From assembly GCF_044324785.1 (NCBI RefSeq), contig NZ_CP172127.1: DNA of 64,000 nt, one strand, 5' to 3'. Position 1 is the first letter of the stretch. The number at the start of each line of letters is the position of its first letter. The translations under genes were made by a program, and so were the position numbers. Below are positions 31,091-33,734 of this stretch, one piece after another. The notes below the pieces were generated by a model that was not told the origin of the DNA, made no database searches, and saw nothing but the letters and a program-made list of their open reading frames with translations. The stretch comes from Escherichia coli (GTDB lineage: Bacteria > Pseudomonadota > Gammaproteobacteria > Enterobacterales > Enterobacteriaceae).

Positions 31091-32179
31091 TCACGGCAGG
31101 CGGTGGCGAGCTTGATAATAAGCCTGCCAGTGAGCTTCTTTATGTGTAGCGACACGTTGTTCGAAGTAACGGCGCAGACGTGCGCGATCTTCTTCGTTAT
31201 CTTTGACGATGGTTCCGGCAATACAGTCCACCAGGTCGGCTGGCTCCCCCGCGCGATTCGCTAAAAACCAGGCGCGGACGCCCACAGCGTGGGCCACGTT
31301 CACGGCTTCAGCGGTGGACATAATCGCTGTCAGTGTATCCATTGACGTTTTCTTTTCGCCGTTGGCACGCAGATCGCGGAAGGTGCGTACCAGTAACTCC
31401 AGTACCGCGTCAGGCACTTTATGCGGAATACCGCTATGGGCCAACAAACGCGCCGAAGCACTGGCGACCAGTTCCAGCTCCTGGGCGAAATCCATAATCG
31501 GAAAGACAGTTTCAAAATCGAAGCGACGCTTTAGCGCAGCACTCATTTCATTGACGCCGCGATCGCGGGTATTGGCAGTGGCAATAATATTAAAGCCTTC
31601 CCGCGCATAGAGCTGACTGGCTTCACCAGTGAGTTCCGGCACCGTCATTACCCTGTCAGAAAGCATACCTAACAGACAGTCTTGTACTTCCAGCGGTGTA
31701 CGCGTTATCTCTTCAAAACGGACAATTTTGCCGTCGCGCATTCCCTGGTAAAGCGGGGCAGGGACCAGCGCTTCCGTTGACGGACCATGGTTGATAAGCA
31801 GGGCGTAGTTCCAGCCATACTTGATTTGATCTTCGGTGGTAGATGCGCCGCCCTGGATGGTTAACCCGGCATCGCCGCTAATAGCGGTTGCCAGTAATTC
31901 AGACAGGAGAGATTTTGCGGTGCCAGGTTCCCCCACCAACATCAAACCGCGCCCGGTAGCGAGAGTGACTAACATGCGTTCGACAGCGGAGGGACTGATC
32001 ACGACTTTACGGCTAATATTTTGCGCTTCGTCGCCAAGGATAAAAGCACGGGCCGCAGGCAAACTTAACTGCCAACCTGGCGGGCAAGGTGCGTTATCAT
32101 TTTGTTTTAATTTTGCCAGTTCATCGGCGTATAACACAGCGGCAGGCGGACGCTGCAGATGTTTATTCTGCGGTGACAT
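31091..32179 (-). CDS. yehL: MoxR-type AAA+ ATPase YehL
   Basis: 362 aa from internal ATG (MSPQNKHLQRP); Walker A GEPGTAKS. Confidence 0.85.
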   Translation of the reverse strand: MSPQNKHLQRPPAAVLYADELAKLKQNDNAPCPPGWQLSLPAARAFILGDEAQNISRKVVISPSAVERMLVTLATGRGLMLVGEPGTAKSLLSELLATAISGDAGLTIQGGASTTEDQIKYGWNYALLINHGPSTEALVPAPLYQGMRDGKIVRFEEITRTPLEVQDCLLGMLSDRVMTVPELTGEASQLYAREGFNIIATANTRDRGVNEMSAALKRRFDFETVFPIMDFAQELELVASASARLLAHSGIPHKVPDAVLELLVRTFRDLRANGEKKTSMDTLTAIMSTAEAVNVAHAVGVRAWFLANRAGEPADLVDCIAGTIVKDNEEDRARLRRYFEQRVATHKEAHWQAYYQARHRLP

Positions 32180-32290
32180 ATATTCATCCCTGAAATGTAT
32201 TAATGAAATAAACGATATTTTACGCGCAATAAATGTTTGGCGCATTAGTTGTTTGAGCGAAAAATATCTGGAAAGCAGATCACAGTAAAT

Positions 32291-32371
32291 AAAAAAACCT
32301 GCTGGTGAGGCAGGTTCTTTTATTTACTACAGTGACGCTAACTTGCTGATTGTGCAACATTTCGTACCAAC
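32291..32371 (-). ncRNA. orzO: OrzO-like antitoxin sRNA (copy 1), ~81 nt
   Basis: Minus-strand promoter (-10 TATAAT at 32383-32378, -35 TTGCAA at 32406-32401, 17-nt spacer); terminator hairpin AACCTGC-TGGTGAG-GCAGGTT 32296-32316 followed by U-tract on minus strand; 5' 18 nt complementary to toxin 5' UTR 32520-32537. Confidence 0.6.
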
Positions 32372-32377
32372 GAATAA

Positions 32378-32428
32378 ATTATAACCATATCCACACTCCA
32401 TTGCAATTCAGTGAATGAGATTTATAAT
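32378..32428. promoter_or_regulatory. divergent sigma70 promoters of zor copy 1 and its sRNA sharing one palindromic -35 hexamer TTGCAA
   Basis: Plus strand: TTGCAA (32401-32406)-16 nt-TATAAT (32423-32428); minus strand: same TTGCAA-17 nt-TATAAT (32383-32378). Confidence 0.55.
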
Positions 32429-32609
32429 CCTGCCCGTTGGGAGGTTGTGCCGGATCGGACCAATTTTAAGTCCTGGCTACCGGACGGGTGGTGCCGCAGG
32501 CGGTGCCCTGATCCGGAGAGCAACGTTTCGTACCAACATACGTAAACCAGTATCGACAGGCAGTGTAAGGGTAAGGTGCTGGTGTTGCGCTCCTTAATAA
32601 GGAGAGCGG

Positions 32610-32699
32610 ATGGACACGCTGACACAAAAGTTAACCGTGCTCATTGCTATACTGGAGCTATTAGTGGCTCTGTTACGGTTGATTGATTTGTTGAAGTAA
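32610..32699 (+). CDS. zorO: type I toxin, 29-aa hydrophobic peptide ZorO/ZorP family (copy 1)
   Basis: Manual translation: MDTLTQKLTVLIAILELLVALLRLIDLLK; AAGGAG SD 5 nt upstream; ~175-nt 5' UTR from predicted TSS ~32436; O versus P assignment between the two copies is uncertain. Confidence 0.8.
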   Translation: MDTLTQKLTVLIAILELLVALLRLIDLLK

Positions 32700-32720
32700 C
32701 GGGCAAATTGAAACGCATCT

Positions 32721-32745
32721 AAGGGGGAAAACCGCTTCCCCCTTT
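32721..32745 (+). terminator. rho-independent terminator of zor copy 1
   Basis: AAGGGGGAAAACCGCTTCCCCCTTT hairpin 22 nt after stop. Confidence 0.6.
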
Positions 32746-32897
32746 AATAAAATGATTACTGTTTTTATTAATTCATCATATAACTCATTTTTATTTATAA
32801 ATTCATCGATTTTATATTCAACGTACCATTTGACCGGGATGTGAATATTTATGGTGGGCTATTGGCAAAAAATATCTGGAAAGTAGATCGCAGAAAA

Positions 32898-32979
32898 TAA
32901 AAAAACCTGCTGGTGAGGCAGGTTCTTTTATTTACTACTTTGATGTTAAGTTACTGATAGTGCAACATGGCATCTCAAC
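32898..32979 (-). ncRNA. orzP: Orz-like antitoxin sRNA (copy 2), ~82 nt
   Basis: Minus-strand -10 at 32991-32986, -35 TTGCAA 33014-33009; terminator hairpin 32904-32924 with U-tract; 5' region complementary to copy-2 toxin UTR 33126-33146. Confidence 0.6.
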
Positions 32980-32985
32980 GAACGA

Positions 32986-33036
32986 ATTATAACCACCTCT
33001 GGACAGTGTTGCAATTAAGATAATGAGATTTATAAT
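32986..33036. promoter_or_regulatory. divergent promoters of zor copy 2 and its sRNA sharing palindromic TTGCAA
   Basis: TTGCAA 33009-33014; plus-strand TATAAT 33031-33036; minus-strand TATAAT 32991-32986. Confidence 0.55.
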
Positions 33037-33217
33037 CCTGACTGTTGGGAAGTTGCGCCGGATCGAACCCATTTCAAGTCCTGGCTACCGGACGGGTGGT
33101 GCCGCAGGTAGTGCTCTGATCCGGAGTGCAACATGGCGACTCAACAAACGTAAACCAGTGTCGACAGGCAGTGTAAGGGTAAGGTGCTGGTGTTGCGCTC
33201 CTTAATAAGGAGAGCGG

Positions 33218-33307
33218 ATGGACACGCTGACACAAAAGTTAACCGTGCTCATTGCTGTACTGGAGCTATTAGTGGCTCTGTTACGGTTGATTGATTTGTT
33301 GAAGTAA
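33218..33307 (+). CDS. zorP: type I toxin, 29-aa hydrophobic peptide ZorO/ZorP family (copy 2)
   Basis: Manual translation: MDTLTQKLTVLIAVLELLVALLRLIDLLK (one I-to-V difference from copy 1); same SD and UTR architecture. Confidence 0.8.
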   Translation: MDTLTQKLTVLIAVLELLVALLRLIDLLK

Positions 33308-33326
33308 CGGGCAAATTGAAACGCAT

Positions 33327-33734
33327 CTAAGGGGGAATACCGTTTCCCCCTTTAATAAAGCTATACTCGTCATACTTCAAGTTGCATGTGCTGCGACTTG
33401 AATTATCTAGAGTATATAATTCTATTTGTTGGTTGAATATATTCTGTAGTTCACAATTAAAAATTACTATTACAGGTTCAGGTGATTCGCCTCGTAATTT
33501 TTGCTCATCAATAAACTCATCTCTTATATAAATCAACGCATCATTTATTAGCGGGTCGACATCTTCTCGATCACGTTGATGAAATGTTGGACGTAGCCGG
33601 AATCGCTCCAGCCGGTAGACGGAGCCTGTAAATAATTCAGAGCGTTTATGGATCTCAAGCCTGAAGGAAAACGGCTCTTCAGGTACAGGGGCCTCATAGT
33701 CGTAAATAGTGACCAGCTCTTTTTGCACGATCAT
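33327..33734 (-). CDS. yehK: hypothetical protein (YehK-like), 135 aa
   Basis: ORF in the position of yehK downstream of yehI; identity by position only; 3' end overlaps zor copy-2 terminator. Confidence 0.45.
   Translation of the reverse strand: MIVQKELVTIYDYEAPVPEEPFSFRLEIHKRSELFTGSVYRLERFRLRPTFHQRDREDVDPLINDALIYIRDEFIDEQKLRGESPEPVIVIFNCELQNIFNQQIELYTLDNSSRSTCNLKYDEYSFIKGGNGIPP
33329..33353 (+). terminator. rho-independent terminator of zor copy 2
   Basis: AAGGGGGAATACCGTTTCCCCCTTT hairpin. Confidence 0.6.

What the first reader, a model, noticed from the sequence alone, without database searches (positions are those of the whole stretch)
32378..32428. One palindromic -35 hexamer (TTGCAA) serves both divergent promoters of each toxin/antitoxin unit
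TTGCAA is its own reverse complement. In both copies it sits 16 nt upstream of a plus-strand TATAAT (toxin mRNA) and 17 nt upstream of a minus-strand TATAAT (sRNA). Two back-to-back promoters sharing one -35 element implies RNA polymerase cannot occupy both at once, which would couple toxin and antitoxin transcription initiation.
Basis: seen in the sequence. Interest (0 to 1): 0.6.

Follow-up and report, generated by a model that had tools for sequence, protein, structure and literature searches.

The report
Shared -35 box of zor-orz promoters
The hexamers are real and sit exactly where published start sites require, but this is the already-described promoter core of the E. coli zor-orz toxin/antitoxin genes, and whether sharing one -35 box couples toxin and antitoxin transcription is still untested.

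Summary
In both tandem units, TTGCAA lies 17 nt from a minus-strand TATAAT and 16 nt from a plus-strand TATAAT.

The locus is the known zorO-orzO / zorP-orzP type I toxin-antitoxin pair, between yehL and yehI.

The hexamers are already in print. Wen 2014 boxes them in a figure. Shore 2024 lists "-35 (TTGCAA)" for both genes, conserved in 99.4% of 2,439 loci. No paper I could search discusses the sharing.

My own alignment of 11 distinct cores shows 20 of 51 columns varying, none of them in the 18 hexamer positions, and no indels.

TTGCAA is the best possible hexamer for two-way use as a -35. The relatives dinQ-agrAB, tisB-istR and shoB-ohsC do not share a hexamer.

The same layout at 17/17 spacing is at least 10-fold enriched in phage contigs. 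It is conserved upstream of a family of Arc-like repressor genes.

Mutually exclusive RNA polymerase binding follows from the geometry. Functional coupling is only inferred, and work on promoters that share a -10 shows competition only at high promoter activity.

The parts
32291..32371 (-). orzO antitoxin sRNA gene, 81 nt. +1 is the G at 32371; the terminator stem-loop is at 32296-32316, followed by a U run.
   Evidence: Rfam RF02083 OrzO-P scores 88.8 bits against a gathering score of 60, at 32291-32364. The 5' end comes from primer EF537 and the 18-nt pairing stretch in PMC3919570. Terminator.
32378..32383 (-). -10 hexamer TATAAT of the orzO promoter, preceded on the minus strand by an invariant TGGT.
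   Evidence: Invariant in 14 aligned cores. 99.8% conserved in 2,439 loci (PMC11264685).
32401..32406 (.). Palindromic TTGCAA, the predicted -35 of both the orzO and the zorO promoter.
   Evidence: Invariant in my alignment. Tabulated as the -35 of both genes at 99.4%. It is the optimal hexamer for two-way use.
32423..32428 (+). -10 hexamer TATAAT of the zorO promoter, preceded by an invariant GAGATT.
   Evidence: 100% conserved.
32436..32609 (+). zorO 5' UTR, 174 nt, with +1 at the G at 32436. The OrzO target is 32520-32537.
   Evidence: UTR length and RBS position (+164..+169 = AAGGAG at 32599-32604) from PMC5397157. OrzO:zorO duplex -32.9 kcal/mol.
32610..32699 (+). zorO ORF, 29 aa: MDTLTQKLTVLIAILELLVALLRLIDLLK.
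   Evidence: Translation.
32721..32744 (+). Hairpin after zorO, probably its terminator.
   Evidence: RNAfold gives a 9-bp GC-rich stem at -14.6 kcal/mol. The U run is short, so the terminator scan did not list it.
32899..32979 (-). orzP antitoxin sRNA gene. +1 (G at 32979) is placed by homology with orzO.
   Evidence: Rfam RF02083 scores 91.7 bits at 32899-32972. Layout identical to orzO.
32986..32991 (-). -10 hexamer TATAAT of the orzP promoter.
33009..33014 (.). Palindromic TTGCAA, the shared -35 of the orzP and zorP promoters.
33031..33036 (+). -10 hexamer TATAAT of the zorP promoter.
33044..33217 (+). zorP 5' UTR, 174 nt by homology. The OrzP target is 33128-33145.
   Evidence: Same -10-to-start and start-to-ATG distances as zorO. 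OrzP:zorP duplex -37.6 kcal/mol, against -25.0 (OrzO:zorP) and -23.4 (OrzP:zorO) for the cross pairs.
33218..33307 (+). zorP ORF, 29 aa: MDTLTQKLTVLIAVLELLVALLRLIDLLK.
   Evidence: Translation.
33329..33352 (+). Hairpin after zorP, probably its terminator.
   Evidence: RNAfold -16.0 kcal/mol.

Best explanation
The 51-bp segment is the promoter core of one zor-orz type I toxin-antitoxin unit. It holds two sigma-70 promoters back to back. P_orz reads leftwards: TTGCAA, 17 nt, TATAAT, 6 nt, then +1 G at 32371. P_zor reads rightwards: TTGCAA, 16 nt, TATAAT, 7 nt, then +1 G at 32436. Both use the same six base pairs as their -35 element.

Shown:
- the hexamers and their spacings;
- the identity of the two genes;
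- both start sites;
- strict conservation of the three hexamers and both spacer lengths while the spacers diverge.

Inferred:
- Sigma region 4 of only one polymerase can sit on the hexamer, and the two footprints would overlap by about 45 bp. Each initiation event is therefore a choice between toxin mRNA and antitoxin RNA.
- TTGCAA is the compromise that gives both directions 4 of 6 consensus matches and keeps the important TTG on each strand.
- The optimal 17-nt spacer and 6-nt discriminator on the orz side, against 16 and 7 on the zor side, should bias the choice towards the antitoxin.
- How much this exclusion changes expression depends on how heavily the promoters are occupied. With a consensus -10 on both sides I expect measurable but modest competition, so the toxin promoter cannot gain on the antitoxin promoter when polymerase is plentiful.

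The main control of toxin synthesis remains post-transcriptional. OrzO pairs with the zorO 5' UTR, RNase III cleaves the duplex, and the UTR masks its own ribosome-binding site (published).
For: - Geometry.
- Gene identity: Rfam; ORFs and cognate duplexes; yehL-yehI position; matches in 5,220 of 5,426 complete E. coli genomes.
- Start sites: with primer extension reported in PMC2887945.
- Constraint: in 14 cores (11 distinct) from E. coli, E. whittamii and two unnamed Escherichia species, 20 of 51 columns vary. None of the 18 hexamer columns varies and there are no indels. P = 7.4e-6 if variable columns fell at random.
- Published conservation is 99.4-100% in 2,439 loci.
- TTGCAA ranks first of 4,096 hexamers for simultaneous two-strand use as a -35.
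- The architecture is not a one-off. It lies between divergent ORFs in 39 of 46 distinct cases, against 7 of 25 for a control centre. In a protein-selected sample it is kept upstream of Arc-like repressor genes: 44 of 50 have TTGCAA and 45 of 50 have 17/17 spacing.
- Steric competition at promoters that bind polymerase in two orientations has been demonstrated once activity is high (PMC12825309).
Against: - No mutagenesis, footprint or reporter data exist for these promoters. The -35 assignment is 'predicted' in every paper I read.
- With consensus -10 hexamers, one or both promoters may depend little on the -35.
- Five natural shared -10 promoters showed no competition at basal activity.
- OrzO abundance changes with growth phase, which a fixed-ratio device does not explain by itself.
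- The two copies in the window are duplicates. Most E. coli loci are closely related, so conservation partly reflects shared ancestry.
- orz-only loci keep the toxin-side -10 at 100%. This may only mean that the deletion is recent.
Confidence: 0.6

Rival explanations
1. The hexamer is shared on paper only. Both promoters are occupied so rarely, or clear so fast, that the two initiations are statistically independent. The compact layout would then be a by-product of a small, duplicated module.
For: Five natural bidirectional promoters that share a -10 showed no polymerase competition at basal activity (PMC12825309). The zor promoter has a 16-nt spacer and a C-rich 7-nt discriminator. From my own knowledge of rrnB P1, these features are associated with short-lived open complexes.
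Against: Both promoters match 10 of 12 consensus positions with perfect -10 hexamers. That is closer to the 'up' variants that did compete. OrzO is described as abundant in exponential phase. Spacing and hexamers are conserved far better than the spacers. The same layout is strongly enriched at 17/17 spacing in phages.
Confidence: 0.25
2. The coupling is positive rather than competitive. Each departing polymerase leaves negative supercoils behind, or each A+T-rich -10 region acts as an upstream element for the other promoter. The two promoters would then stimulate each other and fire in alternation.
For: The Warman et al. preprint reports reciprocal stimulation at closely spaced divergent start sites (abstract). 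Each -10 lies at about -52 to -58 of the opposite promoter, where UP-element distal subsites sit (geometry).
Against: By my own comparison of the sequence with the UP-element consensus as I recall it, the match is only 6 of 11 positions. No data exist for this locus. A polymerase bound at one promoter still covers the other -35.
Confidence: 0.08
3. TTGCAA, with its invariant flanking TT, is conserved because an unidentified regulator binds it and controls both genes. It would not be conserved as a two-way -35.
For: TTGCAATT is invariant in all 14 cores. Unit 1 has a 16-of-20 imperfect palindrome, CACTCCATTGCAATTCAGTG, centred on the hexamer.
Against: The extended palindrome is absent from unit 2 and from the other loci. 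No regulator of zor-orz is known (PMC11951105). The hexamer sits at exactly the promoter spacing from two consensus -10 boxes whose start sites are mapped. The same hexamer at the same spacing recurs in unrelated phage loci and in the agrA and agrB promoters.
Confidence: 0.05

Closest known systems
zorO-orzO / zorP-orzP type I toxin-antitoxin locus of E. coli O157:H7 EDL933 (Fozo 2010 PMC2887945; Wen 2014 PMC3919570; Wen 2017 PMC5397157; Shore 2024 PMC11264685)
   Same: Same chromosomal position between yehL and yehI. Same tandem duplication, 29-aa toxins, roughly 81-nt divergent sRNAs, 174-nt UTR, start sites, and -35/-10 hexamers.
   Different: The window is a different strain: unit 1 is 100% identical to strain N3. 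ZorO carries I14, and ZorP lacks the T3S change reported for EDL933. The papers list the hexamers but, in the text I could search, never mention that one hexamer serves both promoters.
dinQ-agrAB and tisB-istR, the SOS-controlled divergent type I loci of E. coli K-12
   Same: The toxin 5' UTRs align with zor: AAGTCCTGG, ACGGGTGGTGCCG, ACAGGCAG. By my reading, the agrA and agrB promoters are TTGCAA-17-TAGCAT/TAGTAT-6-G, the same layout as orz. The sRNA is divergent from the toxin gene.
   Different: LexA operators lie between the sRNA -35 and the toxin -10. dinQ has about 23 extra nt there (PMC3567139). tisAB has no assigned -35, and its start lies about 80 bp from that of istR-2. In both loci the toxin and antitoxin promoters are adjacent and do not share a hexamer.
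shoB-ohsC divergent type I locus
   Same: A divergent sRNA pairs with a long toxin 5' UTR through its own 5' end.
   Different: The published -35 hexamers, GTGACC for shoB and TTGTAA for ohsC, lie about 70 bp apart, and the start sites about 143 bp apart.
Bidirectional promoters in the sense of Warman et al. and the Grainger laboratory (bioRxiv 10.1101/2020.01.31.928960; PMC12825309)
   Same: A symmetrical core promoter element is read in both orientations. Two polymerases cannot bind together. Competition has been shown when activity is high.
   Different: There the shared element is the -10 and the start sites are 7-25 bp apart, with a mode of 18. Here the -10 boxes are separate, the -35 is shared and the starts are 65 bp apart. 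Those authors explicitly exclude separate divergent promoters from their class.
Overlapping divergent promoters with documented or proposed polymerase competition: P22 Pant/Pmnt and N. gonorrhoeae mtrR/mtrCDE
   Same: Divergent transcription from overlapping polymerase binding sites. For mtr, the authors propose that a -35 point change shifts polymerase recognition from one promoter to the other (bioRxiv 10.1101/448712). Competition at P22 immI is from my memory of Vershon, Liao, McClure and Sauer, and was not checked here.
   Different: In P22 the -35 of each promoter overlaps the -10 of the other, and by my estimate from those positions the starts lie about 37 bp apart (X01916 annotation). 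In mtr the two -35 hexamers are adjacent, not identical.
Phage cassette found here: an Arc-like repressor gene divergent from a homing-endonuclease or TnpB gene
   Same: ATTATA-17-TTGCAA-17-TATAAT lies between divergent genes. In a protein-selected sample, TTGCAA is kept in 44 of 50 and 17/17 spacing in 45 of 50 distinct upstream regions.
   Different: The spacing is 17/17 rather than 17/16. Both products are proteins. Short palindromes that look like operators lie in the nuclease-side spacer. The cassette is unrelated in sequence to zor-orz.

Membership tests
zor-orz type I toxin-antitoxin family | An Orz sRNA that matches Rfam RF02083 (OrzO-P) above the gathering score | tested here: met
   88.8 and 91.7 bits against a gathering score of 60.
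zor-orz type I toxin-antitoxin family | A 29-aa hydrophobic Zor ORF downstream of a long 5' UTR, with the RBS AAGGAG | tested here: met
   ORFs at 32610-32699 and 33218-33307. AAGGAG at 32599-32604. Matches Table 3 of PMC11264685.
zor-orz type I toxin-antitoxin family | The 5' end of the sRNA is complementary to the cognate toxin 5' UTR, with cognate specificity | tested here: met
   An 18-nt stretch pairs 32354-32371 with 32520-32537. Cognate duplexes are -32.9 and -37.6 kcal/mol, against -25.0 and -23.4 for the cross pairs.
zor-orz type I toxin-antitoxin family | Chromosomal position between yehL and yehK/yehI | tested here: met
zor-orz type I toxin-antitoxin family | The toxin is toxic on overproduction and is repressed by the sRNA through RNase III | not testable with these tools
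   Published for EDL933 only (PMC3919570).
Sigma-70 promoter (each of the four) | -35-like and -10-like hexamers 16-18 nt apart, with a start site 6-8 nt after the -10 | tested here: met
   10 of 12 matches, spacers of 16 or 17 nt. Published start sites lie 7 and 8 nt after the -10.
Sigma-70 promoter (each of the four) | Transcription depends on the hexamers, shown by mutation or footprint | not testable with these tools
   The literature calls them 'predicted'. No mutagenesis found.
Bidirectional promoter in the sense of Warman et al. 2021 | Divergent start sites 7-25 bp apart on either side of, or within, one shared -10 element | tested here: not met
   The starts are 65 bp apart and the -10 hexamers are separate; the shared element is the -35.
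Overlapping divergent promoters with polymerase competition | The polymerase binding sites of two divergent promoters overlap physically | tested here: met
   The -35 hexamers are identical. With the standard -55..+20 footprint (established knowledge), the two footprints overlap from about 32381 to 32426 (geometry).
Overlapping divergent promoters with polymerase competition | Weakening one promoter strengthens the other | not testable with these tools
   No data for zor-orz. This is the decisive experiment.

The most novel reading that the evidence does not exclude
Back-to-back promoters that share one palindromic -35 hexamer, optimally TTGCAA, may form a distinct, selected class of two-way promoter, with start sites about 65 bp apart. 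This class would be separate from the shared -10 class described by Warman et al. It would be used where a harmful gene and its antagonist must be initiated in a mutually exclusive, hard-wired ratio. Two examples support the idea: toxin against antitoxin RNA in Escherichia zor-orz, and homing nuclease or TnpB against an Arc-like repressor in many phages. Within its own superfamily (dinQ-agrAB, tisB-istR), zor-orz would be the derived member that lost the LexA operators and placed the toxin -10 at working distance from the antitoxin's -35.
Probability: 0.3. Interest if true: 0.55.

Novelty: already known. Interest (0 to 1): 0.3.

Why it matters
For zor-orz itself the gain is small. The genes, the start sites and the hexamers are all published.

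The useful part is a cheap, well-defined experiment that has not been done on a locus whose transcriptional control is called undeciphered (PMC11951105). Does a shared -35 make toxin and antitoxin initiation mutually exclusive, and does that fix their ratio or shape cell-to-cell variation?

The phage survey run here suggests the same layout is common and conserved. A positive result would therefore add a second geometry to the recently recognised two-way bacterial promoters.

Tried and rejected
- More distant zor-orz relatives. A genome-contig scan with the orz terminator 21-mer found only E. whittamii and two unnamed Escherichia species. A sensitive BLAST against plasmids found only E. coli records. 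Conservation can therefore be judged only within Escherichia.
- UP-element idea. By my own comparison with the consensus as I recall it, the opposite -10 region matches the distal UP consensus at only 6 of 11 positions. Not supported.
- Operator idea. The 16-of-20 palindrome around the unit 1 hexamer is absent from unit 2 and from the other loci. Rejected as a conserved site.
- Sharing in other divergent type I loci. shoB-ohsC seemed at first to share a -35 (TTGTAA overlapping TTTACA). The published shoB promoter is a different site about 70 bp away, so this was rejected.
- AACGTT-centre control. It appeared to show a 17/17 excess (15 of 47), but those hits collapse to about four sequence families.
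- Literature. Searches for a described shared -35 class found none. This is absence within a limited library, not proof. Bogati 2021 (PMC8765423) and the supplement of Fozo 2010, which holds the primer-extension gels, are not held. The start sites were therefore reconstructed from UTR length, RBS position, a cloning primer and the deletion series.
- Counts. Counts for the 16-18 nt pattern in phage contigs are lower bounds, because the scans stopped at 120 rows.

Full report
**What is there.** The sequence at 32378-32428 reads ATTATA, 17 nt, TTGCAA, 16 nt, TATAAT. The same arrangement recurs at 32986-33036. The promoter scan returns exactly four sites in 32100-33500. They form two pairs on opposite strands that use the same TTGCAA, and each site scores 10 of 12.
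- TTGCAA alone is not remarkable: 18 copies in the window against 38 expected.
- The arrangement is remarkable. Among 48 promoter-like sites in the window, these are the only opposite-strand pairs that use the same six base pairs as -35. Random sequence of the same first-order composition gives 0.005 such pairs per window.

**What the locus is.**
- Rfam places the OrzO-P antitoxin family (RF02083) at 32291-32364 and 32899-32972 on the minus strand, well above its gathering score.
- Downstream of each plus-strand promoter lies a 174-nt leader and a 29-aa hydrophobic ORF.
- The segment lies between yehL and yehI. Similar sequence occurs in 5,220 of 5,426 complete E. coli genomes, and RefSeq annotates nothing under the listed matches.
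- This is the zorO-orzO / zorP-orzP type I toxin-antitoxin locus, first described in E. coli O157:H7 (PMC2887945, PMC3919570).
- Cognate sRNA-UTR duplexes are much more stable than cross pairs: -32.9 and -37.6 against -25.0 and -23.4 kcal/mol.

**Start sites.**
- Fozo et al. mapped the 5' ends of both mRNAs and both sRNAs by primer extension. The figure is not held, so I reconstructed the positions.
- Wen et al. 2017 give a 174-nt zorO 5' UTR with the ribosome-binding site at +164 to +169. AAGGAG is at 32599-32604 and the ATG at 32610. Both facts put +1 at the G at 32436.
- For OrzO, primer EF537 joins the vector's AatII site to GTTGGTACGAA. The paper states that the 5' end carries a continuous 18-nt pairing stretch, reduced to 15 and 12 nt by deleting 3 and 6 nt. 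The 18-nt match between 32354-32371 and 32520-32537 ends exactly at 32371.
The two start sites are 65 bp apart.

**Is it already known?**
- Figure 1A of Wen 2014 boxes the predicted -35 and -10 elements.
- Table 3 of Shore et al. 2024 lists "-35 (TTGCAA)" for both Zor and Orz with the same conservation (99.4%). It lists "-10 (TATAAT)" at 100% and 99.8% in 2,439 loci. It also shows that 656 orz-only loci keep all three elements.
- None of the zor-orz papers I could search uses the words shared, overlapping, palindrome or bidirectional for these promoters.
- A 2025 review remarks in general terms that divergent type I promoters may compete.

**Independent test of constraint.** I aligned 14 cores, 11 of them distinct. 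They come from the window, seven E. coli strains, E. whittamii and two unnamed Escherichia species.
- Twenty of the 51 columns vary: 12 of 17 in the orz-side spacer and 8 of 16 in the zor-side spacer.
- None of the 18 hexamer columns varies, and there is no indel. P = 7.4e-6 if variable columns fell at random.
- Also invariant are ACCA next to ATTATA (TGGTTATAAT on the minus strand), TT after TTGCAA, and GAGATT before TATAAT.
- The sequences are related, so this is a column-level argument, not a phylogenetically corrected one.

**Why TTGCAA.** For one hexamer to serve as -35 on both strands at the same position, no sequence can match TTGACA better than 4 of 6 in both directions. Six hexamers reach 4/4. 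Only TTGCAA keeps TTG on both strands, and it ranks first under an approximate log-odds score. The base frequencies in that score are recalled from memory, so the match-count result is the firm one.

**Comparison with relatives.**
- shoB-ohsC: the published promoters lie about 70 bp apart.
- tisAB and istR-2: a LexA box lies between them, tisAB has no assigned -35, and the starts are about 80 bp apart.
- dinQ-agrAB: by my reading, the agrA and agrB promoters are TTGCAA-17-TAGCAT/TAGTAT-6-G, the same layout as orz. The dinQ, tisB and zor leaders align over several blocks. dinQ carries about 23 extra nucleotides, its LexA operators, between TTGCAA and its -10.
- Within this apparent superfamily, only zor-orz places the toxin -10 at working distance from the antitoxin's -35.

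**Is the layout used elsewhere?** I tested this in phage contigs (IMG/VR).
In that sample 61 of 121 sites were 17/17, against one ninth expected.
- The exact 17/17 pattern alone also exceeded 120 rows.
- The same hexamers at 19-21 nt spacing gave 109 hits in total, about 12 per spacing pair.
- A control centre, AACGTT, gave 47 hits, and its apparent 17/17 excess collapsed to about four families.
- Distinct 17/17 sites lie between divergent ORFs in 39 of 46 cases, against 7 of 25 for the control. They carry extended -10 TG motifs in 57% (right) and 33% (left), against 0-8%.
- About half of the distinct cores belong to one cassette: a 52-59 aa Arc-like repressor gene (phrog_3180) divergent from an HNH or GIY-YIG homing endonuclease or a TnpB-type transposase.
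- In a sample chosen by the protein and not by the promoter, 44 of 50 distinct upstream regions have TTGCAA and 45 of 50 have 17/17 spacing.
- The layout is therefore a recurrent, conserved design and not an accident of one E. coli locus.

**Mechanism.**
- Shown: two mapped divergent transcripts whose promoters use the same six base pairs as their predicted -35.
- Inferred from established knowledge: sigma region 4 occupies the major groove of the -35 hexamer, and open complexes protect about -55 to +20. The two complexes would therefore overlap from roughly 32381 to 32426 and cannot coexist.
- Whether this matters depends on occupancy. In the Grainger laboratory's study of shared -10 promoters, five natural examples showed no competition at basal activity. 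Competition appeared after -35 up-mutations or activation.
- The zor and orz promoters have consensus -10 hexamers and 10 of 12 matches overall, so I expect some competition, biased towards orz. That is a prediction.
- Rival readings are practical independence, positive coupling through supercoiling, and an unknown regulator site.

**Verdict.**
- It concerns promoter elements already tabulated for a well-studied locus.
- The proposed coupling is plausible and untested.
- The broader point, a class of two-way promoters that share the -35, rests on the phage survey done here. I could not find it described in the library searched.

Noticed in passing
L014 1400-2100 (MG1655 dinQ-agrAB); L012 985-1260 (tisB); window 32395-32615: The zor, dinQ and tisB 5' UTRs align over several blocks: AAGTCCTGG, ACGGGTGGTGCCG, ACAGGCAG, and CTCC before the SD. 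The agrA and agrB promoters have the same TTGCAA-17-(-10)-6-G layout and roughly 81-nt product as orz. Shore 2024 states that no evolutionary relationship between zor/orz and dinQ/agrB had been proposed.
   Followed up: partly
viral loci L015-L134, L292-L430 (for example L021 3450-3501, L049 8917-8968, L033 2869-2920): A widespread phage cassette. A near-leaderless Arc-like ribbon-helix-helix gene (phrog_3180) lies divergent from an HNH or GIY-YIG homing endonuclease or a TnpB-type transposase gene. The two are separated by ATTATA-17-TTGCAA-17-TATAAT, with short palindromes (CTACAAGTAG, GTCCTTGGAC, CTGATATCAG) in the nuclease-side spacer.
   Followed up: partly
window 32436 (+), 32371 (-), 33044 (+), 32979 (-): Both transcripts of each unit begin with the same letters: zorO GTTGGGAGG and OrzO GTTGGTACG; zorP GTTGGGAAG and OrzP GTTGAGATG. 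The two-fold pseudo-symmetry of the core therefore reaches the start sites.
   Followed up: no
L002 1511-1710 (K-12 derivative ER2683); window about 33403-33420: The K-12 type orz-only allele keeps the whole 51-bp core plus about 40 nt of zor leader. It then joins sequence that in the window lies downstream of the zorP terminator. The orphan toxin-side promoter points antisense into yehK.
   Followed up: no
L011 1511-1550 and 2289-2468: In strain ET791 an IS1 element (1588-2284) splits the orz gene, separating its terminator from its 5' part and promoter.
   Followed up: no
window 32610-32699 and 33218-33307: ZorO here carries I14 (LIAILELL) and ZorP V14. Neither has the T3S change reported for EDL933 ZorP, so the window is not EDL933. 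Unit 1 is 100% identical to E. coli strain N3.
   Followed up: partly
window 32280-32700 and its matches in E. coli genomes: RefSeq lists no annotated feature under any of the 40 listed matches to this stretch, which has matches in 5,220 complete E. coli genomes. In the regions I fetched, neither the sRNAs nor the 29-aa ORFs are annotated.
   Followed up: no
window 33362-33418 (-): A weak partial match to Rfam isrH: 22.6 bits against a gathering score of 45, E = 0.0017, downstream of the zorP terminator. Probably chance.
   Followed up: no
window 32364 and 32972 (-): The Rfam OrzO-P model starts 7 nt inside the published or inferred 5' ends (32371 and 32979). It therefore omits part of the 5' seed that pairs with the toxin mRNA.
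   Followed up: no
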